Source of the DNA: an uncultured Gemmatimonadales bacterium
GTDB taxonomy: Bacteria > Gemmatimonadota > Gemmatimonadetes > Gemmatimonadales > GWC2-71-9
Direction of reading: 5' to 3'
DNA length: 64,000 nt
NCBI GenBank assembly: GCA_963771275.1
Contig: CAVYSW010000009.1
Span: 1-64,000, forward strand
Part shown: piece after piece, positions 3,011 through 43,686 of the stretch
Layout: each line of letters begins with the position of its first letter
Position numbering within the stretch: position 1 is the first letter of the stretch
Made by a program: the position numbers and the translations under genes
Notes under the pieces: model-generated
What the model was told of the DNA's origin: nothing
Databases searched by the model: none
Seen by the model: only the letters and a program-made list of their open reading frames with translations

Positions 3011-3120
3011 TTGCGACCTTCTTCGCGCGTAGTCGACATGTTCGGCCAACCTGTCGATCGCTTCGACAGGTGCCGCCTGATATGTCGAAATCCTAGCAGA
3101 ATTTCGACATATATGCCAGC

Positions 3121-6018: not shown

Positions 6019-6025
6019 CCCGGGC

Positions 6026-7505: not shown

Positions 7506-7511
7506 GAGCTA

Positions 7512-8406: not shown

Positions 8407-8423
8407 GTTGGCGCCTCCGCAGC

Positions 8424-9719: not shown

Positions 9720-9732
9720 TCTCCTCACCGCC

Positions 9733-10211
9733 TCACTTCCCAAACACCTCCGCCCACGTGCTCGTCCACCGCCTCCGCTGCCCGTCCGCGGTGTTCACCC
9801 ACTCGAACTGCACCCCCTCATCGGTCATGAACAGGTTCAGCTCGACGTCCGGCGTCCCAATCGGCGCTGCCAACTCGGTGAAGTCCACCGCCTGGAGGAA
9901 GTCCAAGGCCGGCGCCTTGTACCACTGCGCATAGACCGTCATGAACGTCACGATCGTCATCTGCGCCGTGAGCGCCACGAAGTTGTCGCGGCTGATGAGG
10001 CCGCCGGCCGGCGCCTCGGCGTGGACCTTGACCTGGAATTGCGTCGCCTCGTAGTTCGGCACCGCGATCTTCACCAGGTCGTACTCGTCGGCCACCATCT
10101 TGCCGGCCTGGATGGTCGACGAGATCCTTGCTCAGCTGCTGCTTCCAGTCCTGGGCGCCGAGCGGAGCGGCCAGCATGGAGACGACGGACAGGGCGATTA
10201 GGACGCGCATG
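9733..10211 (-). CDS. Hypothetical secreted protein, frameshifted
   Basis: Signal peptide MRVLIALSVVSMLAAPLGA-Q in one frame, continued by ORF 9733..10098. Confidence 0.5.
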
Positions 10212-27135: not shown

Positions 27136-27756
27136 CTACGGCAGCAGCGGCGCGCCGAGTCGCTCGGCGTAGCGGGCGAGGATCCCGTCCATGTCGGCCG
27201 TGAGGTCCCCGCTCGCGGTCACGGCGGGCCCCACGTGGATTGCCTTGTGCGGGTTGTCGAACGTGACGAGCAGAATCGGCACGCCGGCCCCCTGGGCGAT
27301 GTGATAGAACCCGGTCCGCCACCGCTCCACCGCCTTGCGGGTGCCTTCCGGGGCGATCGCCAGCAGGAACCGCGGCCGCCGGTCGAACTCGCTCACCATC
27401 TGGCGCACGAATCCGTGGGACGAGCGCCGGTCCACCGGCAGCCCGCCCAGCCAGCGGAAGAACCAGCCGAACGGCGGCCGGAACAGCACGTGCTTCCCCA
27501 TCCACGTGAAGCCGAGGCGCAGGGAGAAGGCGGCGGCCAGCGCCACGACGAAATCCCAGTTCGACGTGTGGGGCGCGCCGATCATCACCAGCTTGGGCTC
27601 GTTGGGGAATGCCCCCGTGACGCGCCATCCCAGCGCCGCCAGCACGCCGCGGCCGAGCGCGCGGGTGACCCACGTGCCGCGCCGGGGGATCGCATCACCG
27701 AGCGGCGCGATCGAGGGATCGCGCGGCACCGCGCGGGGCGGATGCGCGGCGGTCAC
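27136..27756 (-). CDS. Lysophospholipid acyltransferase (PlsC family)
   Basis: APHTSNWD and IAPEGTR motifs. Confidence 0.9.
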   Translation of the reverse strand: MTAAHPPRAVPRDPSIAPLGDAIPRRGTWVTRALGRGVLAALGWRVTGAFPNEPKLVMIGAPHTSNWDFVVALAAAFSLRLGFTWMGKHVLFRPPFGWFFRWLGGLPVDRRSSHGFVRQMVSEFDRRPRFLLAIAPEGTRKAVERWRTGFYHIAQGAGVPILLVTFDNPHKAIHVGPAVTASGDLTADMDGILARYAERLGAPLLP

Positions 27757-27888
27757 CGGCGGCCGCCGGGATGGGGCGGGAGGATGGGAATGCGCACCTG
27801 AGGAGTCCGCCGCTAAGGTAGGGTCGGCGGCGCCTCGGGGCCATGCCCGCCCCGGTATCACGCCGCACGGCGGAAGCCGCCGTCCTGG

Positions 27889-30800
27889 TCAGTTGCCGAA
27901 GCGCGCGCGCCAGAAGCCGGCGACCGTCGCGACGCTCCCCTCGGTGATGCGGGCGCCGAGCGTGACGAAGGCGCCGTGCCCGCCGCGGACGGCGAAGTCC
28001 GGGTCGCGCAAGTCGCCGAACCGGTAGCCCGCCGCCACCTCGAGCACGTCGATCAGCCCGACCGCGAGCGACGGCGCGACATCCCACCGCGCGGAGCTGC
28101 TGGTACGCTCGATCAGCAGGCGGCCCTCGGAGCGGAACGTGAGGAACGCGTTGAGCCGCAGCTCGGCCCGGGCGCCGGCGTAATCGGCCCGGGACTCGAG
28201 CCGCTGCAGCGTGCTGTCTTCGTGCTGCCGGTCGGCGGCCGTGCGCCGGATGGCGTAGCGGCCGGCCAGCTCCACCCGGCGGGTCGGCGTCCAGATCAGC
28301 TCCGCCGCGCCAATCAGGCGCTGCTCCTGGCCGAGACTGGTGAGCACGCCCCGATCGAGCGGATTGGTCTCGTCGAGCCACGAGAACTTCGTGAGCACGT
28401 GCACCGCGTCGCTTCGGATCGGGCGGAACGCGACGCCCCAGAGTGACGCCACGCGCCGGCTGTTGCGGCTGCCGGTCGCGAGCGCCTGCTCGGTGCGCAG
28501 CAGCTCCTGGCGGGACAGGATGGCGAGCGAGCGGTTGATCGACACGTCGCCGGCCAGGGTCACCAGCCGCGTGGACAGCCGGTCGCCGTCGCGGTACTCG
28601 CCCCGCCCGGTCACGCGATAGGGCGCGCCCGCCGGCAGCAGCTCGACGCCGCCACTCACCGACCAGTAGTCCTCCTCGTCCTGCAGGAACGGCAGGGCCC
28701 GCACCGGATCACCCGGGTCGGCGCCGCTCACGCCGAAGCGGCGCTCGAACATCGTGTTGACGGTCCAGGCCGACCCGAGCCGGAGCCGGTTGTTGAGGCC
28801 GATCACGGCGGCGTTGTAGCGCGCGCCCGCGCCACCGGCGAGCTGGTACGAGCCCCACGCCTGCGTGCCGAAGCCCAGCTCCGACCGGACGCCGATGTTG
28901 GTGACGCCGTACGACTGGTCGTCGGGCAGCAGCGCGAAGCGGTGCCGCAGCTCGAGGCTCACGTTGTCGGTGAGCTTGAGGCCCGCGCCCGCGCCGATCT
29001 GGTTGGGGCGCACGAGGCTCTCGCTCGCGCCAAGCTGCTGGCGGCCTTCCGCCCACAGCCGGAGGCGCGGGAACGGCGTCCAGCTCAGCTTGCCCTCGAG
29101 CGCGTTGGATCGGTCGCCGTCGGCGCCGTTCTCGAAGCTGTCGAGCGCGTCGGTGGCCTCGACCTGGAAGTGCGCGCCGATCGGCTGCACGACGCCGAGG
29201 CTCGTGCGCCGCCGGCTCACGGCCTGGGACGCGGAGCTGAAGTACTCGTGCTGGGCGCGGAACGTCGTCCCCGTGGCGGCGAACCGGTAGCTGCCACCCG
29301 CCTTGAGCTCCGCGGTGCCGGCACGCAGCGCGATGTTGGACGGGTTGCCGAAGCCGTCGCCGATCTTCATCCAGGCGGCCGAGAGATGCAGCGCGCCCTG
29401 GAACAGATCGGCGGACCCGGTGAGCGACGTCGCGAGGCCGCTCGAGTCGGGCGCATGCGAGTAAGACAGCTCAGCCCCCAGGTCCAGCGCCTTCGTCTTC
29501 AGGAGCCGTACGTCGACGCCGGTCAGGTTGAACGCGCCGGTCGGCTCGTCGGCGTGAATCGCGCTCACGCCCAGCCGCAGCGAGTCGAGCCCACCCAGGC
29601 CGGACCGGGGCAGCGCGCTCACCGACGCGCGCAGCCCGCCCACCAGGCGACTGGCGCCGCCGCCCCGCCCCTCGTACGTCACCACGAGGAAGACGGGGTT
29701 CTCGTTCTCGTCGGCCGCCGGGACGGGGCGCTTGAACAGCAGCGTGCCGGTCTCGTAGTCGATCTGGTAGTCGACGAACCGCACCAGCCCCTGGCGCGTG
29801 ACGACGCGCTGCGGATTCTCGCGATCGCGCGTCTCGACCACGATCTGCTCGCTGGTCGGGATCGCGGCGCCACCGAGCGCGTACGGCCCCGAGACGCCGG
29901 CGCCGCGGATCTGCTCCTGCCGCAGGCTCTGGCTGGTGAGGCTCGCGAACCCGCGCCACGCGACCGGACCCGTGGTGATCTGCGCCATGCCGCCGGACAG
30001 CGCCCGGCGGTAGGCGGCGAGGCTCAGGCCCTGCGCGAACTCGGCGGTGGCCACGTCGCCCACCGTGAGCCAGTCGAAGCCGCGCTCCACGCGGGCCGAC
30101 ACCGCGTAGCGCGACGCGCTGAGCGTGCGCACCGCGCTCGCGTCCCCGAGGATCGGGTATTGCGCCTCGTCGAGCGGATCGTAGTCGCGCCCGAAGTTCT
30201 CGCGGCCGGCGTTGAGCCGCCGCGAGTCGACACTCAGCACCACCGACGTGCGCGCGTCGAGCCGGCCCCGGGCGGTGAGCGCGCCGTAGGCGTCGGGCGC
30301 CGCGCCGACGCCGACCCGCCCAACCGCGGTCACCATGAGGGGACGCGCCGCGGGCAGGGTCTCGAGCGGGCGCTCGTACATCGCGTCACCCGTCCGGAGC
30401 GTGAGCCGGCCCCGCGTCACCACGAACCCCGGCTTCACGTCGACGGTGAGCCAGCCGAGGGAATCGCTCTGGAGCTGGAGGCCGACCGACGAGGGATCGC
30501 TGTCGCCGCCCGACACGTCGGCCCCGTCCACCGTGACGGTGACGTCGGTCGGCGTCACGACCGGCACGCCCCACCGGTCGAGCAGCCGCACCCGGACCGG
30601 CGCGACCGTCTGGCCGTCGGCGGTAAGCTGCAGCGCGCCCGTCGGTCCCACGAGTGTCGCCGGAAGGCCGCTCACGTGCACCGCGATGCTGTCCCAGCGC
30701 TCCTGGTTCCAGGTGTTCCGCAGGGCGACCCGCAGGCGGTGCGGTCCCGGCGTGAGTGGGACGGCGATGAAGTCGTGGATCCCGTCCACCCGGACATCAC

Positions 30801-33800
30801 CACGAGCGAGCACCGTGTCACCGTCGTACAGCGTGACCGGCTGGCCCGGCTCGCCCCGCACGCCAATGAAGACGCGGTCGCGCGCCGTCACCGTCCCGTC
30901 GGTCAGGCCGAAGATCCGCACCGCCGGCCCCATGAGGAACGCGTTGCGCGCGTCCGCATCCCGCTCCGCGTCGGTGCGCAGGGTCGGCACCACGACCGGC
31001 TCGGCCACGACCCGCGCCGCGACCGGCGCCAGGGCAAGTGTGACGGGGCCCGGCGCGTCGCTGGCCTCGCGCGCGACGCCGGTGGCGGGGGTGAGCGAGT
31101 CCACGACCGCGGTCGCGATCCGCCCGGCGCTCTGCCCCGCGATCTCCAACGTCGCGTATGCGGAGTCCGCCGATCCGGTGGTCCAGGCGGTGAGGGCGAG
31201 CCGGGTTCCCGGCGCGAGCGCGGGCAGATCGAGCGGTCCATCCACGGTGGGCACCGGCGCCTCACCCATCACCAGCCGCACGGAATCCACCGGGGCCCCG
31301 AACCGCACGGCCAGGCCCTCGAGCGGGCGATCGCCCGGGTTCGCGATGGTGACCGTGTACTCGGTCACGGGCGGCGCGGGCGGAGGCGCCTCGGCAGGGA
31401 GCACCGTCGCCACACCCCGCACGAACGTGGCGGTCGTGCTCCGGCTCGCGCCCGGCACGAGGCGCATCTCCACCCGACGATTCCGTGCCCGGCCTTGCCG
31501 CGTGGCATTCGAGACGGCGGGCCGGTCCGGCCCGTAGGCCAGCACGGTCAGGCGCGCCGCGTCCACGCCCTGCGACACGAGGTAGTCGGTCACCGTCGTG
31601 GCCCGCTCGAGCGAGAGCCGCAGGTTCAGACTGCGCGGTCCTTCGGAGCTGGTGTGACCCGCGATCTCGACCCGGATCTCCGGACTCGCGTTGAGTAGCG
31701 CGGCGAGCTCGTCGAGGACAGGACGGGAGGCGGCGGTGAGCCGCGACTGGGCCAGCTCGAACGTGACCGGCAGGACCCAGATCGGCACGGCGGGGACGGC
31801 GGCGGTCACCGAGTCCGGCTGGCCCGCCACGGCGGGCTCCGCCGGGGGCTGGGGAACCGTGTCGGCGGCCGCGGCGACGGTGCGCGCCCCGAAGCTCCAC
31901 GTCAGCGGCACCCGCGCGCGCTCCACGCGCGCCGCGCGCGGTACGAGCCGGAACTGCACGATGGGAGTGGTCCAGCCGCCGGCGTCGCGCGTCACGATCT
32001 GGTCGGACGACGCGATGCGGTAGTCCGCCGGCACCGTCGCCGGATCCAGCCGAAAGGCGTGACCGCCGGCCCGGACGTTCTGGAACGAGAACTTGCCGTC
32101 GGCGTCGGTCGTCGCCACTTCGCCATCGTCGGTCCAGACGTCGAGGCCGGCCACGCCCGGCTCGTCGCCGCTCTGCACGCCGTCGCCGTTCCGGTCGAGC
32201 CACGCCTTGCCGATTACGGCCCGGGTCTCGAGCGGCCAGCTGCTGCGCAGGCGGACCCACGCCACCTGCATCGGCGCCGTGACGCCGCCGCCTTCGGCGG
32301 TCGCGTACGCGCGGTTCTCGATCACCTGCTGCTCCGCCGACACGATGGCCACCTGGTAGCGCACCGTGTGGCTGGCGCCGGGGGCGAGCGGCCCGCTCCA
32401 GAAGAACGTGAGCACCCGGCCGTCCACGTGCACCGAGTCCGCGCCCAGCGCGCTCCCCGTGGCGTACCGGCCGCCCTCGGGCAGCGAGTCCACGACGCGG
32501 AGATCGCCGAGCGGGTTGTCGCCGGTGTTCTGGAGCACCAGCGTGTAGGGCACGGTCTCGCCGAGCCCGACCTCGAGCACGTCGGCCGACTTCTGGAGTC
32601 CGAGCTGGTTGGGCAGCAGCCCTACCAGCACGACCGGGGCGGAGAGCGCGGCCGCGGGCGGCGCGTTGGCGGCCGCGACCACCGCGACGTTGCGCACCGT
32701 CACCGTGTCGCGGACCTGGTCGGAGACGCGCACCGTGAGCGCGACGCTCACGGAGTCGCCGGGCGCGACGTCGCCCATCGTCCAGGAGAGGACGCCGCCG
32801 CTCACGGTAGCGGCCGGTGCGGCGGACACGAAGTCGAGGCCGGGCGGCAGCGTGTCGACCAGCGTGACAGCGCGCGCCGGCATCGTGGGCGAGCGGTTCG
32901 CCGCGACGAGCGCGTAGAGCACCTGCTCGCCGATGCGCGCCGTCACGGGGCCCAGCAGGGTGTTCGCGAGGCCGAGCTGCGCGTGCACCACCGTGGTCAC
33001 GGCGGTGTTGGACGTCACCGAGTCGGCGCCGGCGAGCGTGCCGTAGACGGCCCCTGCGCGGTTGGCGATCGGCGTCTGGTCGGCGAGCCCGTTGGCGATC
33101 CGGACCTGGAAGGCGAGGGTGCCGCGCTGCCCACTCGGCAGGTCGCCGAGCGCGAACACCACGCGGTTGCCGGCCGGATCGAACCAGGCGGCGTCGTCCC
33201 CGACCGCATCGGTCAGCGCGGTGCCGCCCCACGTCAGCGACCCCGCGATGTAGGTGGCGCCCGGCGGGATCGGATCGCTGACGACCAGACTCGTTGCCGG
33301 GTTCGTCCCGCTCACGTCGCAGGTGAGCGTGTAGCTCAGCACGTCGCCCGTGGTCGCGGTGGTGCGATCCACCAGCTTGGCGAGCGTCACGAGCACACCC
33401 GCGTCCGGGACCTGCAGCACGTCGAGCACCGCGTCGGCGGCGCCGTCGAACTCGCTCACCGCCGTCACCGTCACCGTGTCGGTCGTCCCGCGGACGGTCG
33501 GGGATCCCGGCACATCCACGGCGGCGAGCACGGACGCGACCGCGCCGGCCGCGAGCGTGAGCCCCTGGATCGCGGGATCCGAGGCGTCGAGCACGCCGTC
33601 GTCGTTGAGGTCGCGGTACAGGGTCACCGCCCAGCCGGTTCGCGACACGGCCGCGAGGCGCAGGCTATCGGTCCCGTTGCCGACGTTCGTGACGGTGTGG
33701 GCGAAGACGACACGGCTGCCGGGGTTGGCCGTCGCGGCGCGCGGCGGCGCCAGGTCGACGCCACCCACCTGGGCCACGGTCACCACCAGCACGTTGGAGC

Positions 33801-33987
33801 GCGCGGTGAAGGTGAGTCCGTTCTCGGCCACGTAGGTAGCGTCGGCGACGTTGGAGATCTGGGTGCCCGCGGGCGTCGGGCCCTGGGCGAGCAGGTCGGT
33901 GCCGATCAGGCACAGCACGAGCGCGGCCCCGAACAACGCCATCCCGGGCCGCGACGCGCTCTGCTGGTTTCGGTGTGACCTGCTCAT
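27889..33987 (-). CDS. Large outer-membrane protein: DUF11 repeats, SdrD B-like, OmpA-like, Ig-like and C-terminal beta-strand-rich region
   Basis: Signal peptide; three DUF11 units; WLDRNGDGVQSGDEPG; IAGHTSSEG...NLRLSLERA...NRRVE; long amphipathic-strand C-terminus ending FWRARFGN. Confidence 0.85.
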   Translation of the reverse strand: MSRSHRNQQSASRPGMALFGAALVLCLIGTDLLAQGPTPAGTQISNVADATYVAENGLTFTARSNVLVVTVAQVGGVDLAPPRAATANPGSRVVFAHTVTNVGNGTDSLRLAAVSRTGWAVTLYRDLNDDGVLDASDPAIQGLTLAAGAVASVLAAVDVPGSPTVRGTTDTVTVTAVSEFDGAADAVLDVLQVPDAGVLVTLAKLVDRTTATTGDVLSYTLTCDVSGTNPATSLVVSDPIPPGATYIAGSLTWGGTALTDAVGDDAAWFDPAGNRVVFALGDLPSGQRGTLAFQVRIANGLADQTPIANRAGAVYGTLAGADSVTSNTAVTTVVHAQLGLANTLLGPVTARIGEQVLYALVAANRSPTMPARAVTLVDTLPPGLDFVSAAPAATVSGGVLSWTMGDVAPGDSVSVALTVRVSDQVRDTVTVRNVAVVAAANAPPAAALSAPVVLVGLLPNQLGLQKSADVLEVGLGETVPYTLVLQNTGDNPLGDLRVVDSLPEGGRYATGSALGADSVHVDGRVLTFFWSGPLAPGASHTVRYQVAIVSAEQQVIENRAYATAEGGGVTAPMQVAWVRLRSSWPLETRAVIGKAWLDRNGDGVQSGDEPGVAGLDVWTDDGEVATTDADGKFSFQNVRAGGHAFRLDPATVPADYRIASSDQIVTRDAGGWTTPIVQFRLVPRAARVERARVPLTWSFGARTVAAAADTVPQPPAEPAVAGQPDSVTAAVPAVPIWVLPVTFELAQSRLTAASRPVLDELAALLNASPEIRVEIAGHTSSEGPRSLNLRLSLERATTVTDYLVSQGVDAARLTVLAYGPDRPAVSNATRQGRARNRRVEMRLVPGASRSTTATFVRGVATVLPAEAPPPAPPVTEYTVTIANPGDRPLEGLAVRFGAPVDSVRLVMGEAPVPTVDGPLDLPALAPGTRLALTAWTTGSADSAYATLEIAGQSAGRIATAVVDSLTPATGVAREASDAPGPVTLALAPVAARVVAEPVVVPTLRTDAERDADARNAFLMGPAVRIFGLTDGTVTARDRVFIGVRGEPGQPVTLYDGDTVLARGDVRVDGIHDFIAVPLTPGPHRLRVALRNTWNQERWDSIAVHVSGLPATLVGPTGALQLTADGQTVAPVRVRLLDRWGVPVVTPTDVTVTVDGADVSGGDSDPSSVGLQLQSDSLGWLTVDVKPGFVVTRGRLTLRTGDAMYERPLETLPAARPLMVTAVGRVGVGAAPDAYGALTARGRLDARTSVVLSVDSRRLNAGRENFGRDYDPLDEAQYPILGDASAVRTLSASRYAVSARVERGFDWLTVGDVATAEFAQGLSLAAYRRALSGGMAQITTGPVAWRGFASLTSQSLRQEQIRGAGVSGPYALGGAAIPTSEQIVVETRDRENPQRVVTRQGLVRFVDYQIDYETGTLLFKRPVPAADENENPVFLVVTYEGRGGGASRLVGGLRASVSALPRSGLGGLDSLRLGVSAIHADEPTGAFNLTGVDVRLLKTKALDLGAELSYSHAPDSSGLATSLTGSADLFQGALHLSAAWMKIGDGFGNPSNIALRAGTAELKAGGSYRFAATGTTFRAQHEYFSSASQAVSRRRTSLGVVQPIGAHFQVEATDALDSFENGADGDRSNALEGKLSWTPFPRLRLWAEGRQQLGASESLVRPNQIGAGAGLKLTDNVSLELRHRFALLPDDQSYGVTNIGVRSELGFGTQAWGSYQLAGGAGARYNAAVIGLNNRLRLGSAWTVNTMFERRFGVSGADPGDPVRALPFLQDEEDYWSVSGGVELLPAGAPYRVTGRGEYRDGDRLSTRLVTLAGDVSINRSLAILSRQELLRTEQALATGSRNSRRVASLWGVAFRPIRSDAVHVLTKFSWLDETNPLDRGVLTSLGQEQRLIGAAELIWTPTRRVELAGRYAIRRTAADRQHEDSTLQRLESRADYAGARAELRLNAFLTFRSEGRLLIERTSSSARWDVAPSLAVGLIDVLEVAAGYRFGDLRDPDFAVRGGHGAFVTLGARITEGSVATVAGFWRARFGN

Positions 33988-34019
33988 GGCATCCGCGCTC
34001 CAACGCACAGGCGTAAAGG

Positions 34020-34035
34020 GCACGCTACATGCCAG
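34020..34035 (-). promoter_or_regulatory. Sigma-54 (-24/-12) promoter
   Basis: CTGGCATGTAGCGTGC, GG-N10-GC, just upstream of ATG 33987. Confidence 0.75.
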
Positions 34036-34125
34036 CTCGTGCGCTCTGAGAAATCATCTAAAACGTTATTGATAAACGACTTAGAAACTGACGATTGGGC
34101 TACAACTCGTCCGTCACGGCCGGGG

Positions 34126-34152
34126 GTTACCATTGGTAACCGGCCTGGTAAC
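34126..34152. promoter_or_regulatory. Putative enhancer (bEBP binding site), copy 1
   Basis: GTTAC-CATTG-GTAAC-CGGCCTG-GTAAC. Confidence 0.7.
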
Positions 34153-34291
34153 GACGCTCGTGCCAGGCACTTGGGGGATCCGGTGCGGGGCGGGAGAAAA
34201 GACCGAGGCGGCCGCCTCCGACCCTTGAGATCGGAGAGCGACCGCCCGGAAGGGAGTCGAGCTGGAGGCCGCCCTCAGGCGGCGGCGCGGT

Positions 34292-35536
34292 CTAGTTCAC
34301 CCGGGCCTGGATCCAGAAGAACCGGGTCGCGCCGGCGCCGAGCGCCACTGTGAGATCGGCATCGACGTCGTTGCCGCTGTTGGCCAGCGTCCACCCGGCC
34401 GAGCCATCGTTGGCCAGCGCGAGGAACGTCAGCTCCGCCGGCAACAGATCGTCCACGTGCACGCTGGTGGCGTTCTGGTCGCCGGCGTTGGTCACGCTCA
34501 CCCGGTACCAGATCACCTCCTGCGGGACGACGCGGTCGGTCGGCCCGATCACGGTGACCTGATCGCTGCGATACACCTGCTTGGCGATGGTCACGCGCGG
34601 GCGGATCACCGTGAGGTCCACGTAGCCGTTGTCGAGCGTGGCCGGCTGCGTCACCGACCGCGCCACCAGGTAGAGCGTGTCCCGTGACCCAACCGCGACC
34701 TCGGCGACCGTGTAGGTCACGTCGATGGACACCGACCCGCCGGTGGGGATCGTCACCCGCGTGCTGTCCGGCGGACCGGCCACGCCATTCACCGTCAGGA
34801 TGCCGATCACGACCGACCCCGGACTCGACGCGAGCAGATCGAACGCCTCGGCGGCGTTGCCGGTATTGTTCACGGTGAACGTCTCGGTGTAGGCCGATGC
34901 CCCGCTCGGCAAGCGCTGGCGATTGACGCCACCGTCCGGCGTCACGGCCACCCCGTAGGCCGCGGGCGGCGAGATGTTCGTGGTCGCGGCATCGCTCATC
35001 GTGCCGTCACGCTGCGATGTCGCCGTCAGCGTGTAGCCGGTGGTCTGGCCCCCCTGGCCGGCGTTCACGTCGTAGATCACCGTGACGGTGAGCGATCCCG
35101 TGATGCCCGCCAGCGACTGCGTGAGCAGCGCCGTGTTCAGCGCCGCCACGCTCGCGTAGACGGTCCCCACGCCGTTGATCTGGTATCCGGTCACGGTGAT
35201 CACCGCGCCGTTCGAGATCGTCTCGCCGACCTGCACCGTGTCGGTGCCGTTCCCGATGTTGGCCACCGTGAACGTGATCGATTGGCCCGACGAGGGCGAC
35301 GCGGGCGTGACCGACGCCACCCCCGTCACGTCGAGACCGGCCTGGAAGCCCACCGTGACCGACACCGAGGCGCTGTCGGGCGCATACAGCCGTCCCGTCG
35401 CATCGCGGTAGTTCACGATCGCCTTGTTGGTGATGACGGTTCCCTCAGGCGTTTGCGCCCGGGCCGGGACGGTCACCATGGCCACGGCGACTGCCGCCAA
35501 CGCCACGGCGCGCATCATCCAATTCGAGTTTCTCAT
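34292..35536 (-). CDS. Secreted DUF11 protein, putative major fibre subunit
   Basis: GGAGG RBS, signal peptide, N-terminal QTPEGTVITNKAIVNY, Ig-like repeats, terminal DUF11 ending FWIQARVN. Confidence 0.85.
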   Translation of the reverse strand: MRNSNWMMRAVALAAVAVAMVTVPARAQTPEGTVITNKAIVNYRDATGRLYAPDSASVSVTVGFQAGLDVTGVASVTPASPSSGQSITFTVANIGNGTDTVQVGETISNGAVITVTGYQINGVGTVYASVAALNTALLTQSLAGITGSLTVTVIYDVNAGQGGQTTGYTLTATSQRDGTMSDAATTNISPPAAYGVAVTPDGGVNRQRLPSGASAYTETFTVNNTGNAAEAFDLLASSPGSVVIGILTVNGVAGPPDSTRVTIPTGGSVSIDVTYTVAEVAVGSRDTLYLVARSVTQPATLDNGYVDLTVIRPRVTIAKQVYRSDQVTVIGPTDRVVPQEVIWYRVSVTNAGDQNATSVHVDDLLPAELTFLALANDGSAGWTLANSGNDVDADLTVALGAGATRFFWIQARVN

Positions 35537-35586
35537 GTTCGCCTCCACTCTCCCCCCTCAGGTGTTTACCGTTGCTGCGTAGCGCT

Positions 35587-36123
35587 TCACCGACTGGCCG
35601 CGCTGGTATCCGGCCGCGGCTCCGCCCCAGGCAGCCGCGCCCGGAACTCGGCCGTCACCTGGGCGCCGGGCTGCACCCAGCCCTGCACGGTCCAGCGGAC
35701 ATGCGTGTAGCGTTGCACCGGGGCCGGCCGCTGCTGCGGCTTCCCGTCCACCATTACCTCGATCATCGGTTGGGCGGAGAATGTGGCTCCGCCGTCGATG
35801 GAGTACTCGATCAGCGTGTCGTCGCGATCCGTTTTCGCCGACGCGATGACGTAGCGCAGGCCGGACGGGATCGGGTCTTTCAGCTCGATGCTGCGCACTG
35901 GTGTGGCGTTCAGGTTGGTGAACACGAGCCGGTACTCCACGACATCGCCCGGCAACAGCGCGTTCGAATCGGCGAGTCCACGATGTCGCTCGTCGCCCGC
36001 CATGAGATTCACCGCGGTGATGACGAGCGCCTGCGGCTCGCGCTGTTGTGCCGCGACGCGCATCCCCGCCGCCGCCACGACCAGCCCCGCGACCAACCCC
36101 GCCTGCAGTAGTCTCGTGCTCAT
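35587..36123 (-). CDS. Small secreted single DUF11-like protein
   Basis: Signal peptide; LPGDVVEYRLVFTN, LKDPIPSG, YSIDGG, YTHVRW, AEFRARL. Confidence 0.85.
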   Translation of the reverse strand: MSTRLLQAGLVAGLVVAAAGMRVAAQQREPQALVITAVNLMAGDERHRGLADSNALLPGDVVEYRLVFTNLNATPVRSIELKDPIPSGLRYVIASAKTDRDDTLIEYSIDGGATFSAQPMIEVMVDGKPQQRPAPVQRYTHVRWTVQGWVQPGAQVTAEFRARLPGAEPRPDTSAASR

Positions 36124-36308
36124 GACTCGGTCTCCTCCGTGCTGCGTCGGCTGGTCCGGCCCCACTTGGCCTTGGCACGCTCCGGTGCGCCTTGCGCCTC
36201 CTGCCATGCGAACGGCACTTCGCACCCGTGGCAGATCACCCATTTGCCCGAGAAATCCCCTCGAGCGTAGTGCGTGCTCGTTCCGCAGTGTGGGCACCGC
36301 AACACCAT
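36120..36308 (-). CDS. Small zinc-ribbon protein (62 aa)
   Basis: MVLRCPHC...VICHGC; AGGAG RBS; ATGA overlap with the next gene. Confidence 0.65.
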   Translation of the reverse strand: MVLRCPHCGTSTHYARGDFSGKWVICHGCEVPFAWQEAQGAPERAKAKWGRTSRRSTEETES

Positions 36309-36346
36309 GTGCGACTCCTGTCGTCCAGCTGTTCGGCCGCTAGGGA

Positions 36347-36362
36347 AGCACGGGCCATGCCG
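36347..36362 (-). promoter_or_regulatory. Sigma-54 (-24/-12) promoter
   Basis: CGGCATGGCCCGTGCT, GG-N10-GC. Confidence 0.7.
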
Positions 36363-36459
36363 GGTGGCGAGCATCGACCAATATCGTCGTAAGGTATTGT
36401 CATAAATCGTCTTACAGAGATGCCAACCAGGCAGACTGTCTGTCGCTGCGGGATGTCTG

Positions 36460-36486
36460 GTTACCGAAGGTAACGGCCGGGGTAAC
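36460..36486. promoter_or_regulatory. Putative enhancer, copy 2
   Basis: GTTAC-CGAAG-GTAAC-GGCCGGG-GTAAC. Confidence 0.7.
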
Positions 36487-36517
36487 GCGAGATCGGAACC
36501 GGGCTGGTCGAAGGGGA

Positions 36518-38818
36518 CTACTTGATCCGGGCCACGTACTGGAACGTGCACGTGTTGTTGGGGGCCACCGCGCTCAGGTCGTTGAGCAGCATCCAGCGGA
36601 TCCGGTTGACGCACCCATCGTAGCCCGCCAGGGCCCCGCAGCCGAGCGACGCGGGGGTGTAGGTCCACGTCGCGCCGGCGTCGTTGGAGTACGCGACGGC
36701 GGTACTCACACCGGGCGGCAGCGTGTTCACCACCGATCCGACCTTGAACGTCACCTGCCCGGCGATCGAGTCCACCACGGTGACCGCCACGGCATCGATC
36801 GTCCCGGTGTTGACCGCGTCGATCAGATAGGTGAGATCGGTTCCCGGCGCGACGGCCCCACTGGGATTCGCGCTGCGGCTGATCGTCACTTTCGGTCCGC
36901 CGGAAATCGTGACGTCCTCACCCGTGCTCGATGCCGGAGCGTATGCGGCGCTGGTGGTGCCCGCGGCCGTGGTGCGCGCCGGATCGAGGTAGATGGCCCG
37001 CGCCGGATTCTGATAGGTGCCATTCGGCGTGGCGGCGGCGATGTTGGCGGTGAACGTGAGGCGCACGCTGCCGCCACCCGGGATGGAGAATGTGCCCCAG
37101 GTTGGGATGGCCGCCCCGACGGCAGGGTTCGTCGTGCTGGGCCGGGAGGCGCCCCCGCTGAAGACCGGCGCCGCGGTGGACGCGTAGGTGAACCCGGTCG
37201 GGAGCGTGTCGGTGATGGTGAGCGTCCGCGCCGTGTCGCGACCCGCGGCGTTCGCCACCACGACGGTATAGGTCGCCGTGGTCCCGGAGGGGGAATAGGT
37301 CACGGACGGCGTCGACGTGGTCTTCGTGACCGTGAGTGCCGGGACGCACGCGGCGCCGGCCGACGTGCCCGGAATCTGATTCGCCGTCAAGGTCGCGACG
37401 GAGGATCCGGACGCGCCGGCGGTGGCGTTGAACAGATTCCCGGGCGAAACCGTGTATCCCGGAGCACCCCCCGCGACGTCGACGGATGCCGCGCCGGAGA
37501 GCGCGACGAACCCGCCACCACCACCAGCACCGGGACCATGCGGGACCCCTCCGATGTGGGCGTTCCCGCCATCGCCGCCCCGCGCCTGGACACTGAGGCC
37601 GGCGAGCCCGCCGCTGGCGGCATACACGACGACGCTGCCGCCGGCGCCCCCGCCGCCGCCGCCGTCATTCGCGGGCGTGTTCCCCACCTGTCCATTGGCG
37701 CTGATCGCGCCGACGCCGGTCACGCTCCCGGCGCGGATCATCACGATGCCACCACCCGCGCCACCCGAGCTGGCCGTGCCCGAGGAGTTGTTGCGGGTGC
37801 CCGCTCCACCACCGCCCCCCAACACGATCAGGCTAGCGGCGGCGGGGACGCTCGCGCCCCCGCGTCCCCCCACCGCGAGATTCGAGTTCCAGGAGTTGCC
37901 GCCGCGGCCCCCCGCACCCGCATTCCCACCGCCGCCACCGCCGGAGTTCTCGTCGTTGGCGGAGGGACGTCCGTCGGTGCCACCACCCCCCGCGTTTCCC
38001 GGCGCGCCCCGCGCCGTGCTGCCGTTGGGGTATCCCTCCGTGCCGTTGTTGATCAGCGCCGCCGTCACGGGATCGACCACGTAGCGCGGCATGCCCGCGA
38101 TGCCCTCGCCCTTCGACCCGTGGAAGTTGTACGTGGCGAGGTTCCGGTAGTCGGTATTGGAACCGCCAGACCCTCCCGTGAGCCCCCGGCCGCCACCGCC
38201 GCGAAATCCCTTGGCGTCGACGCTCACCGTGCCACCGAGCGTCAACGTCCCGGCGACATCGATCGCGAGAATGCCGCCGGTGGCCCCATTCCAACCCGAC
38301 GCCGTGAGGCCGGAGCTGAGCGACGCGCTGGAGTACTGCGGGACGCGGACCACCTGATAGCGCCGCTGGCCCTGCGATCCCGTGGCCGCCGCGTTGGTGT
38401 AGGAGTAGTTCAGACCGTTCCCTGTCCCGGTTCCCCGGAAGGTGACGGTGCCGCCCGCGAGGCCGACGGTACTGGTCGCCGTCACGTACTCGTACCGGCC
38501 CGCGTTGTTGAGGCTGGTCGCCCCCGCACCGGACCCGTTGTTGGCCCCGTACGCGCTCGAGTTGGTGGAGTTGATCGCCGCGTCCTGCATCTGGATGATC
38601 AGCAGCAAATCGCCCGGCGTGATCCCCACGCTCGCCCCCGTCGCGGACCCGACCACGAGCGACGTGGCGCCCGCGGCGAGATTGGCGGTGGAGCCGGGGA
38701 AGTACGTGTTGACGATGCCGCTGAGCACGCCACCGGGACCGTCCTTGCCCGGGATGCCGCAGACCTGGGCTCCCGCCGGTGTGAGGGGCACGGACGCGAG
38801 CAGCAACGCCACCGTCAC
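36518..38818 (-). CDS. Secreted glycine-rich DUF11 protein, putative tip adhesin (start uncertain)
   Basis: Signal-like N-terminus, GDLLLIIQMQ domain, many poly-Gly runs, two DUF11 units, ends FQYVARIK. Confidence 0.85.
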   Translation of the reverse strand: MTVALLLASVPLTPAGAQVCGIPGKDGPGGVLSGIVNTYFPGSTANLAAGATSLVVGSATGASVGITPGDLLLIIQMQDAAINSTNSSAYGANNGSGAGATSLNNAGRYEYVTATSTVGLAGGTVTFRGTGTGNGLNYSYTNAAATGSQGQRRYQVVRVPQYSSASLSSGLTASGWNGATGGILAIDVAGTLTLGGTVSVDAKGFRGGGGRGLTGGSGGSNTDYRNLATYNFHGSKGEGIAGMPRYVVDPVTAALINNGTEGYPNGSTARGAPGNAGGGGTDGRPSANDENSGGGGGGNAGAGGRGGNSWNSNLAVGGRGGASVPAAASLIVLGGGGGAGTRNNSSGTASSGGAGGGIVMIRAGSVTGVGAISANGQVGNTPANDGGGGGGAGGSVVVYAASGGLAGLSVQARGGDGGNAHIGGVPHGPGAGGGGGFVALSGAASVDVAGGAPGYTVSPGNLFNATAGASGSSVATLTANQIPGTSAGAACVPALTVTKTTSTPSVTYSPSGTTATYTVVVANAAGRDTARTLTITDTLPTGFTYASTAAPVFSGGASRPSTTNPAVGAAIPTWGTFSIPGGGSVRLTFTANIAAATPNGTYQNPARAIYLDPARTTAAGTTSAAYAPASSTGEDVTISGGPKVTISRSANPSGAVAPGTDLTYLIDAVNTGTIDAVAVTVVDSIAGQVTFKVGSVVNTLPPGVSTAVAYSNDAGATWTYTPASLGCGALAGYDGCVNRIRWMLLNDLSAVAPNNTCTFQYVARIK

Positions 38819-38923
38819 CTCGGCACTCAGGCGGGAGCGTCGAGGGGCCGTGACGGCGCGGACGGCACACGACCGCCAGCTCCGTTTCGCAGCTCGACGT
38901 CGCTAGTCATCCACGGGCGAGTG

Positions 38924-38939
38924 AGCAGGACATGTGCCA
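38924..38939 (-). promoter_or_regulatory. Sigma-54 (-24/-12) promoter
   Basis: TGGCACATGTCCTGCT, near-consensus TGGCAC-N5-YTGC. Confidence 0.8.
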
Positions 38940-39024: not shown

Positions 39025-39052
39025 GTTACCGTCACGTAACCGCGGCGGTAAC
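39025..39052. promoter_or_regulatory. Putative enhancer, copy 3
   Basis: GTTAC-CGTCAC-GTAAC-CGCGGCG-GTAAC. Confidence 0.65.
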
Positions 39053-39084
39053 GGTGGGGCGGCCTGGTGAGCAGCCAGCGCCGG

Positions 39085-40455
<1,371 letters not shown>

Positions 40456-40527
40456 GAGCGCAATACTTGTGCGACAGGCCAGCAATTACAAGGGCTTACG
40501 TGCCCGGGACCCCGGAGCGGGGCGGCG

Positions 40528-40911
40528 ATGGCACCTTCCGTTCGCGTGGTCGTGATCGACGATGATCGCGACCTCCGTCACCTGATCAAGCTCACCATGG
40601 AATTCACCGCCGGCTGGCAGGTCGATGTCGCCGGCGACGGGGAGGAAGGAATTGCCCTCACGCAGCGGGTCCGGCCTGATGTGGTAGTGGCAGATCTCAT
40701 GATGCCGGGGATGGATGGGTACGAGGTCTGCCGCCGCCTCCGGACGGACCCCGCCACCGCGGGAATCCCCGTCATCGTCCTGACGGCCCGCAAGAAAATT
40801 GACGCCGCGCGGCTGACGGAGGCCGGCGCGGCCGGCGTGCTGTTCAAGCCGTTCGAGCCCGACGAGCTCACGACCAGCATCCTGAAATTCATCCGTCCAC
40901 CCGATGCCTGA
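40528..40911 (+). CDS. Single-domain response regulator
   Basis: VVIDDD, DLMMPGMDG, VLTA, KPF. Confidence 0.92.
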   Translation: MAPSVRVVVIDDDRDLRHLIKLTMEFTAGWQVDVAGDGEEGIALTQRVRPDVVVADLMMPGMDGYEVCRRLRTDPATAGIPVIVLTARKKIDAARLTEAGAAGVLFKPFEPDELTTSILKFIRPPDA

Positions 40912-41269
40912 GCTACCAATCCCGGCTGATCGCGCGGCCGCACGGCAGGCCCTGGACCGGGAGTTTGCCGCCGGTCTGAGCGAGCGGACCGCGGTGCTCC
41001 GGGCCGCGCTCGCGGCGTGCGCGGACGTGTTCGCGGCGGCCGAGGTCGAGGCACTCTACTACCGCGCACACGCCCTGAAGGGCACGGCGGCGGCGTATGG
41101 GGCCGATGAGCTGGTGGAGCCGGCGGCCCGCCTCGCCGGCATCGGACGCGGCTGGCTGGAGCGGCGGGCCACCGTCGCCAGTGAGCGCGCCGCGGCCGTT
41201 GCGGCACTCGGCGACCTGGAAGCCGCCGTGGCCAGCTACCGCACCCGGATCGGCGCCACCACCCTGTGA
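40904..41269 (+). CDS. Hpt phosphotransfer protein
   Basis: AHALKGTAAAYG. Confidence 0.88.
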   Translation: MPELPIPADRAAARQALDREFAAGLSERTAVLRAALAACADVFAAAEVEALYYRAHALKGTAAAYGADELVEPAARLAGIGRGWLERRATVASERAAAVAALGDLEAAVASYRTRIGATTL

Positions 41270-43686
41270 CCACACCGCCGCCGCGCGCCGACCGGGCCGC
41301 CGAGCGCCTCGAGATCGTGGGCGAGCTGGCCTCGCTGATCAACACGACGTTCGACCTCCACGAGATCTTCCGGTCGGCAATCGTCAAGCTCCGGCGCGTC
41401 CTCCCGTTCCGGCGCGCGAGCGTCACCCTCCTCTCGGACGACGGCGACCACTACCAGCTCCACACGCTGTATGACGGCGCGCGGGGCGGTTTCCAGGACG
41501 CCGAGCAGCGCTTCCCGCTCGACTACGGCCTGCCGGGGCAGGTGATCCGCTCGGGCGAGGCGATGCGCGTGGACGCGTTCGGCGGGACCGAGGGGATTCG
41601 CCAACCGGGCGAGGGCACGATCTCGGCGCTCATCCTGCCGTTGCGGGTCGACGGAGCGGTGATCGGCTCGCTCAATCTGGGGGCGGAGGAGTCGCTGCGG
41701 TACGGGGACGAAGATCTGGAGCTGGCGCGGCTGTTGGGCCGACAGATCGAGACGTCGCTGCATTACTCGAAGCTGCTGTCCACCATCGAGCGGCAGCGCG
41801 TGGATCTCTCGGCCGAGCATGCACGGGTGCAATTACAGCAGGTCCGGCTCGAGGCGCTGGTCGAGGCCGGGGGCTCCGCGATCATGATGGTCGATGGCGG
41901 GAGGGTGGTGCACGCCAATCGCGCGATGGCCGGGCTGCTGGGCCTGCCCCTCGAGGTCGTCCGCAGCGCCCCGCTCGATCACGTGCACCGGGCGCTGGCA
42001 CGTTCGCTCCGGGACCGGGCAGCCCTCGACGCCCAGGTAGCGGCGATCCAGCCCGGCGGCGAGCCGCTGCGGGATCAAGTCGATCTAGTGTTCCCGCGCC
42101 CGCGCACATTCCGCCGCACCGTCGATCCGGTCGTGAGCCGGTACGGTGAGCCGATGGGGCACCTCGTGGTGTACCGGGACGTCACCCGCGCGGCCGCCGC
42201 CGAGGCCGCGAAGGACGAGTTCGTCTCGATGGTGAGCCACGAGCTGCGGACCCCGCTGACGTCGATCAAGACCTCGCTCAGCCTGCTCACTCGCGGGGCG
42301 GCCGGCCACGTGACAGAGGCGATGGCGGAGTTCATCGCCATCGCGCTCCGCAACCTCGAGCGACTGATCACGCTCGTGGACGATCTGCTCGACCTCTCGC
42401 GGATCGAGAGCGGGCGCCTCGTGACGCACGTGGTGCCGACCTGCGTCGGCGACGTGGCCGCCCACGCCATCGAGATGGTGCGCGCGTTCGCCGACGACCA
42501 GGGCGTCATCCTGGAGTGCGACGTGCACGCGCCGTGCCGGCCCGTCCTGGTCGACCCGGCGCGTCTGGAACAGGTCTTCGTCAATCTGCTGTCGAATGCC
42601 ATCAAGTTCTCGCCGCAGCGAGGGCGGGTGGCTCTGCGGTGGACGGAGGAAGCAGGTGCCCTCGTCACGGAGATCTCCGACGAGGGTCCGGGCATTCCCA
42701 AGGAGCAGCTGGGGGTCGTGTTCGACAAGTTCCGGCAACTCGAGCCGGCCGCGACCCGCGGGCACGGTGGCGTCGGACTTGGGCTCTACATCAGCCGTGC
42801 CATCCTCGCGCAACTCGGTGGCGACCTGTGGGCGGAGAGCGAGGGAGGGCGCGGAACACGATTCTATGTGAAGCTGCCGCTTGCGACCGAAGCGCCGTCG
42901 ACGGCCGCGCCCTCGCAGGACGTCCAGCCGGCGGCAGCGGCCGTGCGGCGCGCGCTCCTGGCGGTCCCGGATCCCGACTTCGCCCTGCTGGTCCGGACAC
43001 AGCTGGAACAGGATGGCATCAGCGTCGAGCTGACCTCCAGCGGCTGGGCTGCCCTCGGCGTGGTCGCGCGGGAACCGCCCGACGTGGTCGTCGCCCACGC
43101 CGAGTTGGAGGACATGCACGGGCTCGAGTTCATGCAGCGCCTCCGGTCCCGACCGGAGGCGGCGAACCTGCCGGCCATCCTGGTGGGCGGCGACCCGATG
43201 CCGGCGCAGGCCATTGCATACGGCGCCGACGCCTGGCTCGCCGCCGATCCCGCCAGCGTCGCGGCCGAGATTCGCCGATTGGGCACGACCCCCCGACGGC
43301 CCGTGATCCTGTTCGTCGAAGACGACCCCGCCGTCCGCGGCGCGCTCGCCCGACTGATCCGGCGGCAGGGGTACGCGGTGGTCGAGGCCACCCACGCGAC
43401 GTTGGGGCTGGAGCTGGCCCGGCGCCGGGTGCCGGACGCGGTCGTGGTCGATCACCACCTCCCGGGGATGTCCGGTCTCGACCTCTTGCGCGCGATGCGG
43501 GACGACCCCGCGTTGGCTGCGGTGCCGGGACTCGTGCTGAGCGGGCACGCCACGCCACAAATCGTGCGTGACGCAGCGGCGCTCGGCGCCGAGTTCCTCC
43601 CCAAGCCCATGGACTGGACGGTGATCGCGCAGGCCGTCGCGCGCCTCATTACGGACCCGAGCGCGCGCCCTCCGTTCGCCCGCTGA
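41266..43686 (+). CDS. Hybrid histidine kinase GAF-PAS-HisKA-HATPase-REC-REC
   Basis: SHELRTPLT, NLLSNAIKFS, DEGPGI, GVGLGL, two receiver-like domains; no TM helix seen. Confidence 0.93.
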   Translation: MTTPPPRADRAAERLEIVGELASLINTTFDLHEIFRSAIVKLRRVLPFRRASVTLLSDDGDHYQLHTLYDGARGGFQDAEQRFPLDYGLPGQVIRSGEAMRVDAFGGTEGIRQPGEGTISALILPLRVDGAVIGSLNLGAEESLRYGDEDLELARLLGRQIETSLHYSKLLSTIERQRVDLSAEHARVQLQQVRLEALVEAGGSAIMMVDGGRVVHANRAMAGLLGLPLEVVRSAPLDHVHRALARSLRDRAALDAQVAAIQPGGEPLRDQVDLVFPRPRTFRRTVDPVVSRYGEPMGHLVVYRDVTRAAAAEAAKDEFVSMVSHELRTPLTSIKTSLSLLTRGAAGHVTEAMAEFIAIALRNLERLITLVDDLLDLSRIESGRLVTHVVPTCVGDVAAHAIEMVRAFADDQGVILECDVHAPCRPVLVDPARLEQVFVNLLSNAIKFSPQRGRVALRWTEEAGALVTEISDEGPGIPKEQLGVVFDKFRQLEPAATRGHGGVGLGLYISRAILAQLGGDLWAESEGGRGTRFYVKLPLATEAPSTAAPSQDVQPAAAAVRRALLAVPDPDFALLVRTQLEQDGISVELTSSGWAALGVVAREPPDVVVAHAELEDMHGLEFMQRLRSRPEAANLPAILVGGDPMPAQAIAYGADAWLAADPASVAAEIRRLGTTPRRPVILFVEDDPAVRGALARLIRRQGYAVVEATHATLGLELARRRVPDAVVVDHHLPGMSGLDLLRAMRDDPALAAVPGLVLSGHATPQIVRDAAALGAEFLPKPMDWTVIAQAVARLITDPSARPPFAR

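What the first reader, a model, noticed from the sequence alone, without database searches (positions are those of the whole stretch)
27889..38939. Candidate undescribed surface-fibre system built from four DUF11 proteins and an OmpA/beta-barrel base
Seen: four co-oriented secreted proteins with DUF11-type domains (about 766 aa Gly-rich; 178 aa single domain; 414 aa; about 2030 aa with SdrD B-like, OmpA-like and a long beta-strand-rich C-terminus), plus a small Zn-ribbon gene. No usher, chaperone, sortase, T1SS or prepilin peptidase is recognisable in the cluster. Known: OmpA C-terminal domains bind peptidoglycan, and DUF11 is an Ig-like repeat of mostly unknown function. Inference: a self-contained pilus-like appendage in which the giant protein is both anchor and export pore. 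I know of no characterised system with this layout but cannot search to confirm.
Basis: partly seen in the sequence, partly recalled or inferred. Interest (0 to 1): 0.9.

Follow-up and report, generated by a model that had tools for sequence, protein, structure and literature searches.

The report
Self-locking pilus with giant membrane pore
These genes from an uncultured Gemmatimonadota bacterium appear to encode an undescribed kind of surface fibre, whose subunits complete each other's last domain, probably lock together covalently, and are rooted in an unusually large outer-membrane pore.

Summary
Observation confirmed. The four minus-strand genes (A 766+ aa, C 178, B 414, G 2032) exist and are co-conserved in Gemmatimonadota; relatives occur in Proteobacteria and cyanobacteria.

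A, B and C end in a DUF11/CLIPPER domain lacking its last two strands; B and G begin with those strands. B's isopeptide triad (Asn37, Lys319, Asp363) is invariant in 104 of 104 sequences. C has no Lys there (0 of 114) and is predicted to bind B's hairpin (0.66, best control 0.16). G's last 800 aa fold as an outer-membrane barrel, about 38 strands, matching no Pfam/NCBIfam family.

A relative encodes the same A-type head, 29 intact DUF11 repeats and the same barrel in one chain, which supports head-at-tip, barrel-at-base.

Three promoters share a palindrome and a sigma-54-like box beside a conserved NtrC-type activator. OmpA is optional (10 of 41).

Best reading (0.65): a covalently locked pilus (tip A, shaft B, donor-masking chaperone C, anchor-plus-pore G). 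It works like chaperone-usher pili but is not a member. Ten literature searches found no description. All evidence is computational. The scan noted this system before on other DNA (five notes).

The parts
27889..33987 (-). Gene G, 2032 aa: signal peptide, donor hairpin, Ig domain, three intact DUF11 domains, SdrD_B, OmpA-C, Ig pair, C-terminal outer-membrane barrel; proposed anchor, terminator and pore
27946..30336 (-). Predicted beta-barrel of G (residues 1219-2015), 38 strands by my count; all 7 loops of 12 aa or more follow odd-numbered strands
   Evidence: AlphaFold2 pLDDT 84.5, pTM 0.73; strand count and parity; fold searches
29650..29934 (-). 95-aa domain inserted after barrel strand 7, strongly conserved; candidate plug or cap on the long-loop side
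31477..31764 (-). OmpA C-terminal-type domain of G (optional in the family)
   Evidence: present in 10 of 41 loci
33775..33885 (-). N-terminal donor hairpin of G (Asn47); equals the two strands missing from the acceptor domains
   Evidence: Asn in 20 of 29; B profile matches this region at E 3e-11
34020..34034 (-). Sigma-54-like -24/-12 box upstream of G
   Evidence: pattern drawn after seeing the three sites
34126..34140 (.). Palindrome GTTAC-N5-GTAAC, candidate activator site, 91 nt before the box
34205..34218 (-). Terminator-like hairpin after B (weak: 4 found in the region against 2.7 in shuffles)
34292..35536 (-). Gene B, 414 aa: donor hairpin (Asn37), two Ig domains, truncated DUF11 acceptor (Lys319, Asp363); proposed major pilin
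35587..36123 (-). Gene C, 178 aa: single acceptor domain, no donor, Ala37 at the Lys position; proposed reversible chaperone or cap
36120..36308 (-). 62-aa CxxC/CxxC zinc-ribbon gene, stop overlapping the start of C; role unexplained
36348..36362 (-). Sigma-54-like box upstream of the Zn-C-B unit
36460..36474 (.). Palindrome GTTAC-N5-GTAAC, 97 nt before the box
36518..38868 (-). Gene A: Gly-rich AgmC_N-like head, one intact DUF11, truncated acceptor domain; proposed tip adhesin. Start upstream of 38818 is interrupted by a one-base difference at 38845 in the window
38925..38939 (-). Sigma-54-like box upstream of A
39025..39040 (.). Palindrome GTTAC-N6-GTAAC, 85 nt before the box
39085..40485 (-). 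NtrC-type sigma-54 response regulator, probable activator; found upstream of A in 17 related loci

Best explanation
A self-contained Gram-negative pilus built from split CLIPPER (DUF11) domains. All four proteins reach the periplasm by signal peptides (inferred by eye). Each B gives its N-terminal two-strand hairpin to the unfinished last domain of the subunit ahead and receives the hairpin of the subunit behind (sequence complementarity shown; binding in trans predicted for B with C only). This rebuilds a CLIPPER domain whose Lys319 and Asp363 come from one chain and Asn37 from the next, so a spontaneous isopeptide bond locks the shaft (inferred from invariance and from the solved CLIPPER bond). 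A, acceptor-only with a variable head, is the tip. C, acceptor-only and Lys-free, masks donor hairpins reversibly until the growing end takes them: a chaperone that accepts strands, where PapD donates one (inferred, about 0.55). The fibre leaves through G's roughly 38-strand barrel (barrel predicted; passage inferred). Growth ends when G's own hairpin enters the last B, tethering the fibre to the pore, and in some species to peptidoglycan through OmpA. Three sigma-54-type promoters under the adjacent activator co-induce the genes (inferred). Likely use: adhesion to surfaces or cells.
For: (1) A profile of 89 intact DUF11 domains (118 positions) covers only positions 3-88 in the last domains of A, B and C, and 88-112 in the N-termini of B and G; the latter weakly, E 0.03 and 0.01. 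(2) B: Asn37, Lys319 and Asp363 in 104 of 104 aligned homologues, and all 104 end at the same column. These are the positions of the Lys-Asp-Asn bond solved in CLIPPER (PMC12617251; weak alignment to 9IFR, E 0.71). (3) C: Ala in 112 of 114 and Lys in 0 of 114 at the Lys column. By eye, five C-types from other phyla also lack Lys and the five B-type C-termini printed whole keep it. (4) C with B(31-192): ipSAE 0.66, best of 3 controls 0.16; mark reached by 116 of 157 solved and 2 of 215 mismatched pairs; runs agree in at least 98% of contacts, partner pLDDT at least 82. The interface is almost only the hairpin, and the register puts Asn37 opposite C's Ala37. (5) Barrel model with loop parity; best structural matches are FimD ushers, Z 16.6, rmsd 7.6, 327 aligned. 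(6) The 19 of 201 Gemmatimonadota genomes with a full-length barrel hit are the same 19 with a strong C hit; 18 have full B and the 19th a B cut by a contig end. (7) L058 encodes A's head (65% identical over 485 aa), 29 DUF11 repeats and the barrel in one 5324-aa chain. (8) A's head varies between loci while its acceptor is kept. (9) Palindrome: 3 in the window against 0 in 100 shuffles, 3 of 7 in the genome.
Against: No fibre, protein or transcript has been observed. B-B and B-G pairing were not modelled; only C-B was. Halves of a split domain tend to pass the complex test by likeness to solved folds (a whole CLIPPER domain, 9IFR, is solved), so the pass shows fit, not binding in the cell. 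I could not view coordinates, so closure of one 38-strand barrel rests on DSSP parity and on porins aligning to both first and last strands; the lumen was not measured. The lock is not universal at the ends: Lys in 13 of 26 A acceptors (Arg in this window), Asn in 20 of 29 G donors. The B homologues are all at least 51% identical, so invariance is partly kinship, and several of the 19 genomes supplied rows of the profiles. No energy source or ordered-assembly domain like the usher NTD/CTDs was identified. The B monomer model is confident along its whole length, which is compatible with self-complementation.
Confidence: 0.65

Rival explanations
1. Outside assembly on an autotransporter-like base: the barrel exports only G's own N-terminal stalk, and A and B leave by another route (or singly through the barrel) and polymerise outside onto G's displayed hairpin.
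For: Single-chain forms (L058-L062) and two-gene forms (L050, L053) show that this barrel family can serve one long chain with no B or C. The genome holds a SprA-like translocon gene.
Against: Strict co-occurrence of C with the barrel in the split form fits periplasmic control. The operon occurs in Proteobacteria and cyanobacteria, which are not known to have type IX secretion (recalled). A 38-strand barrel is far larger than one unfolded chain needs.
Confidence: 0.15
2. A short fixed complex (A-B-G or A-G with one or few B), with B mostly self-complemented; an assembled fibrillar adhesin, not a long pilus.
For: The B monomer is confidently modelled including its N-terminal strands. No expression data show B in excess.
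Against: B carries both donor and acceptor with an invariant triad. Its domains 34-162, 163-282 and 283-384 form a three-domain chain. The single-chain relative uses 29 repeats, which suggests length matters. B lies in its own promoter unit.
Confidence: 0.1
3. An envelope-bracing or S-layer-like structure: the locked chain stays in the periplasm or on the membrane, linking an SlpA-like barrel to peptidoglycan, with no export role.
For: OmpA-C domain. Long structural overlap with Deinococcus SlpA (453 aligned, Z 12.9, rmsd 11.6) and one weak SlpA_C Pfam match among 24 homologues scanned (E 1.5e-7, below cut-off).
Against: OmpA absent from 31 of 41 loci. Patchy presence (19 of 201 genomes). A's heads are interchangeable adhesin-like modules (labels by eye).
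Confidence: 0.07

Closest known systems
Chaperone-usher pili (FimD/PapC, FimC/PapD, FimA, FimH, FimI)
   Same: Tip adhesin, shaft subunit with N-terminal donor and incomplete Ig fold, terminator, periplasmic helper, large barrel with an inserted domain. FimD is the top structural match (Z 16.6, rmsd 7.6, 327 aligned; model 236-756 on FimD 135-655).
   Different: Donor is a two-strand hairpin completing a C-terminal CLIPPER domain; probable covalent lock; helper accepts strands; terminator fused to the pore; about 38 strands against 24 (PMC13721041); no Usher or PapD_N match.
CLIPPER/DUF11 fibrillar adhesins (PDB 9IFR; PMC12617251; Litorilinea GhlA, 10.1101/2025.08.19.671072)
   Same: Same domain and the same Lys/Asp/Asn positions; stalk role in surface proteins.
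   Different: In the passages read the bond is intramolecular and the stalk is one chain; no split domains, polymer or dedicated barrel are described.
Clostridium perfringens BsaA, 'donor-strand exchange and lock' (10.1101/2024.11.04.621531)
   Same: Donor-strand insertion followed by a spontaneous intermolecular Asn-Lys bond with an acidic catalyst, supported there by mutagenesis.
   Different: TasA family, Gram-positive, SipW-dependent, no outer-membrane pore.
Archaeal thread (PMC9715654), TLP-1 fibrils (PMC11494351), Elr pilus (10.64898/2026.10.17.759780)
   Same: Fibres joined by strand donation; the thread has apparent isopeptide links; Elr has a variable tip, terminator and chaperone.
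   Different: Single-domain or WxL subunits, single donor strand, no barrel of this family; no sequence match of B to any PDB chain.
SprA/Sov (type IX translocon) and Deinococcus SlpA
   Same: Very large single-chain barrels; longest structural overlaps (SprA 483 aligned, Z 10.0, rmsd 13.5; SlpA 453, Z 12.9); the insert shares a short motif with SprA-like ORFs (E 7e-5 in a one-sequence search).
   Different: No SprA family match for any of 39 or 25 members scanned; insert profile finds no SprA chain in the PDB; cargo carries no type IX signal that I could see.

Membership tests
Chaperone-usher pilus | Usher-family barrel (PF00577) | tested here: not met
   No Usher match in G, in 39 barrel homologues or in the genome, 96.7% complete, with the E. 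coli control positive
Chaperone-usher pilus | 24-stranded barrel with plug | tested here: inconclusive
   Model gives 38 strands by my count with a 95-aa insert, yet its first two thirds align colinearly to FimD at Z 16.6, rmsd 7.6; remote homology neither shown nor excluded
Chaperone-usher pilus | PapD-type chaperone donating a strand (PF00345) | tested here: not met
   None in the genome, controls positive; C is a DUF11 acceptor
Chaperone-usher pilus | Subunits with incomplete Ig fold completed by a neighbour's N-terminal extension | tested here: met
   In principle and by computation only; different fold, two strands
CLIPPER/DUF11 domain family | PF01345/TIGR01451 match | tested here: met
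CLIPPER/DUF11 domain family | Lys, Asp and Asn within one domain of one chain | tested here: not met
   In B the Asn lies 282 residues before the Lys, in the N-terminal hairpin; A, B and C terminal domains stop at profile position 83-88. G's internal domains are intact
CLIPPER/DUF11 domain family | Isopeptide bond actually formed | not testable with these tools
   needs mass spectrometry or a structure
TasA/BsaA fibres | TasA-family sequence with SipW peptidase in the operon | tested here: not met
   No such Pfam or NCBIfam match in the cluster's genes or the neighbours scanned
Sortase-assembled pili | C-terminal LPxTG anchor and sortase gene | tested here: not met
   A and B end on a beta-strand with no tail; no sortase among the genes scanned; whole genome not searched for sortase
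Type IX secretion translocon (SprA) | TIGR04189/PF14349 match | tested here: not met
   the genome's SprA-like gene is a different ORF
Type V autotransporters / two-partner systems | 12-strand autotransporter barrel or POTRA-bearing Omp85 barrel | tested here: not met
   No such family match; strand count far higher. The passenger-plus-barrel layout of L058 works like one
Sigma-54 regulon | -24/-12 box, upstream activator site, activator and RpoN present | tested here: met
   By sequence only; binding and transcription not testable

The most novel reading that the evidence does not exclude
A widespread, unnamed class of Gram-negative pilus and secretion system: a single-chain barrel of about 38 strands, larger than any single-chain barrel I recall, exports folded Ig chains. 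Evolution has split one tandem CLIPPER adhesin into self-ligating subunits (a natural tag-and-catcher polymer), with a Lys-free 'dummy acceptor' as a new kind of chaperone and the terminator fused to the pore.
Probability: 0.55. Interest if true: 0.95.

Novelty: categorically new. Interest (0 to 1): 0.86.

Why it matters
If true, it adds a pilus assembly pathway and an outer-membrane translocon family to the short list known in Gram-negative bacteria. The family is large: 2853 representative clusters match the barrel profile at E up to 0.001 and 1287 at 1e-30. It spans Gemmatimonadota, Thermodesulfobacteriota, Latescibacterota, Proteobacteria and cyanobacteria. It would give a function to many proteins labelled only 'DUF11'. 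It predicts enzyme-free covalent polymerisation in the periplasm, useful for protein materials and display. Cultured carriers and three named residues make it directly testable.

Tried and rejected
- TLP-1 (recalled lead): its protomer is a single small domain with an n+4 donor; B has no PDB sequence match. Rejected.
- PDB sequence searches: C none; A only chance hits at E above 0.5; B only designed repeat proteins; barrel profile none.
- Foldseek on B gave generic tandem-Ig matches, VIA best Z 11. Foldseek on the barrel model was uninformative, TM at most 0.21.
- SprA-likeness of the insert (recalled motif): weak hit to two SprA-like ORFs, none in the PDB. Left as a lead.
- AgmC: A's head matches NF047640 at 126 bits against a cut-off of 275; no paper found; no gliding role claimed.
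- Sigma-70 promoters: 0 found.
- Expression: no RNA holder listed.
- Metagenome neighbourhood scan with the diverse alignment could not run, so the cross-phylum survey rests on 7 plasmid records.
- The B count was faulty (the G query cross-hit B); one search replaces it. L007, the one long locus without B, has a run of N just before the G fragment and was set aside, as were 17 loci cut by contig ends.
- Protein-atlas searches returned only unnamed or DUF11 clusters.
- Literature: searches listed no paper describing this operon. The library lacks most subscription papers; no supplements were read, and gene-level mentions in supplementary tables could be missed.


Full report
OBSERVATION. The cluster is as described. 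In transcription order on the minus strand: an NtrC-type regulator (39085-40485), A, a zinc-ribbon gene, C, B and G. Close homologues are all Gemmatimonadota. G residue numbers count from 33990. Three of four runs laid carry one extra base at 38845, which joins A to an upstream frame with a plausible start at 38868.

SPLIT DOMAINS. I built a profile from 89 intact DUF11 domains inside G homologues (118 positions). G's three internal domains cover it fully. The terminal domains of B, A and C cover only positions 16-83, 3-84 and 9-88. The mature N-termini of G and B cover 88-112 and 90-107, weakly (E 0.01, 0.03). So A and C are acceptor-only, G donor-only, and B both. The solved CLIPPER domain has an intramolecular Lys715-Asn806 bond beside Asp748 (PMC12617251, sections 7 and 8 read). 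In 104 aligned B sequences (the query and 103 of the 119 other listed hits) the matching Lys319, Asp363 and Asn37 are invariant, and every sequence ends at the same column. In 114 aligned C sequences (the query and 113 of the 119 other listed hits) the Lys column holds Ala 112 times and Val twice. The ends are looser: Lys in 13 of 26 A acceptors, Asn in 20 of 29 G donors. Most long barrel homologues also begin with a donor-like hairpin (read by eye).

MODELS. AlphaFold2 gives B as three Ig domains plus two N-terminal strands, pLDDT 94.3; fold searches find only generic Ig chains. C with B(31-192) scored 0.66 against a best control of 0.16 (mark reached by 116 of 157 solved and 2 of 215 mismatched pairs; contacts agree at least 98%; partner pLDDT at least 82). 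The B side of the interface is alignment positions 5-16, 18, 21, 24-35 and 66, that is the hairpin. Pairs 11-8 and 9-10 place Asn37 opposite C's Ala37 by extrapolation. Split-domain halves tend to pass this test by likeness to solved folds, so this shows fit only. B-B and B-G were not modelled.

BARREL. G980-2033, folded from 74 sequences, has pLDDT 84.5 and pTM 0.73: an Ig pair, then 38 strands by my count from the DSSP list, leaving out the strands of a 95-aa insert after strand 7. All 7 loops of 12 aa or more follow odd strands and none follow even ones, as in a membrane barrel. Porins align to both first and last strands, which suggests closure. FimD chains rank first in the second-look search (Z 16.6, rmsd 7.6, 327 aligned); in the wide search maltoporin, FimD, PapC and VDAC tie at Z 13.5-13.9, so no family stands clear. 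No Usher, SprA or autotransporter profile matches, and the genome has no PF00577 or PF00345 gene. Lumen size was not measured.

CO-CONSERVATION. Of 47 genome loci, 29 show B, 28 show C and 27 an A-type acceptor. Order C-B-G holds in 28 of 28 loci with both. Of the 18 without B, 17 are cut by contig ends and one has an assembly gap. A-type genes occur in 26 of the 28 loci with C, their heads differing widely; three A-type genes lie on the opposite strand. In 201 Gemmatimonadota genomes, 31 match the barrel and 19 of these at full length; the same 19 have a strong C hit, 18 a full B and one a cut B. These are kin and partly supplied the profiles. Among 7 plasmid records, five carry C-, B- and G-type genes (Acinetobacter haemolyticus, Pacificitalea, Novosphingobium, Kovacikia, Synechococcus NIES-970; some genes in pieces, G sometimes split between stalk and barrel). 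Two (Eleftheria, Pelagibacterium) carry only a long repeat protein and a barrel gene.

SINGLE-CHAIN FORM. Of 7 regions fetched from genomes with weaker barrel hits, five hold one ORF with 4 to 29 DUF11 repeats and the barrel; one is a SprA-like ORF and one a DUF11 fragment. L058 starts with a head 65% identical to A's over 485 aa (E 4e-138, Gly-rich). This gives the expected order head, stalk, barrel in one gene, and suggests the split operon replaces encoded repeats by a polymer. It also keeps alive the rival that the barrel exports only its own chain.

REGULATION. GTTAC-N5/6-GTAAC occurs three times in the window, before A, Zn-C-B and G (0 in 100 shuffles), and 7 times in the genome with spacers 0-12. 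Each is followed 85-97 nt later by a sigma-54-like box (consensus recalled; pattern fitted after seeing the sites). In related loci the palindrome precedes A in 13 of 17, C in 15 of 24 and G in 2 of 28; a box was found in 15 of 69 segments against 0.008 per 300 nt in this genome. RpoN is present.

MECHANISM AND STATUS. Shown in sequence: genes, split architecture, conserved triad, Lys-free C, linkage, motifs. Predicted: barrel, hairpin insertion. Inferred: covalent B-B links, long fibre, passage through the lumen, chaperone role, termination by G, adhesion. Overall 0.65; rivals 0.15, 0.10 and 0.07.

LITERATURE SEEN. PMC12617251: passages and two sections. PMC11494351: parts 1-2 of 5. Passages only: PMC11821415, 10.1101/2024.11.04.621531, 10.1101/2025.08.19.671072, PMC13721041 (first 300,000 of 525,587 characters held), PMC9715654. 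Abstract and outline: 10.64898/2026.10.17.759780. Ten searches, listings only, found no description of this system. Strand numbers of SprA and SlpA are recalled. Earlier scan notes describe the same kind of locus in other genomes. I had translated the proteins before reading them, but first wrote down the split-domain reading afterwards, and they supplied the BsaA lead; I tested the claims here. The single-chain link, the sigma-54 motifs and the test of C were not in the lines of those notes that I saw.

VERDICT. Real, conserved and probably a new class of covalently locked Gram-negative pilus with its own translocon; entirely computational so far.

Noticed in passing
G000:C3:1689856-1696077 (L056) and L063:5294-11842: SprA/Sov-like ORFs of about 2100 aa in Gemmatimonadota (TIGR04189 215 bits on a fragment, above cut-off 200); they share a short motif with the barrel insert.
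   Followed up: partly
L058:2004-17975 and L059:6872-14779: One genome (G187) has two single-chain adhesin-plus-barrel genes, 5324 and 2636 aa, on one contig, without strong B or C hits.
   Followed up: partly
L050:4338-16574 and L053:6832-16481: Two-gene form: a long DUF11-repeat protein ending in what looks by eye like a degenerate OmpA-type domain, followed by a separate barrel gene; resembles a two-partner system with a periplasmic retention end.
   Followed up: partly
window 36120-36308: Zinc-ribbon gene seen in many but not all related loci (15 of 25 with 3 kb upstream); in L010 it lies downstream of G. Unexplained.
   Followed up: partly
window 39067-43686: Beside the regulator lie a plus-strand receiver domain near 40550-40880 and a GAF-PAS hybrid histidine kinase (41266-43686); candidate partners of the activator.
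   Followed up: no
G000:C3:1321471 and C3:1321980, C9:405951, C11:12344: Four other copies of the palindrome (spacers 6-7), two of them 500 nt apart, without a nearby sigma-54-like box.
   Followed up: no
window 36530-36650: A's acceptor carries a Cys pair in an inserted loop, kept in most A homologues: probable disulfide; C has a hairpin-like insertion at the same place.
   Followed up: no
window 1-10000: Lower GC (0.60-0.63 against 0.70) with fragments resembling a DNA methyltransferase and helicase (by eye): probable acquired restriction-type island.
   Followed up: no
window 43699-45654: 651-aa PQQ-like beta-propeller protein with weak BamB-type matches below cut-off.
   Followed up: no
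window 27136-27861: Acyltransferase gene directly downstream of G; linkage in related loci not examined.
   Followed up: no
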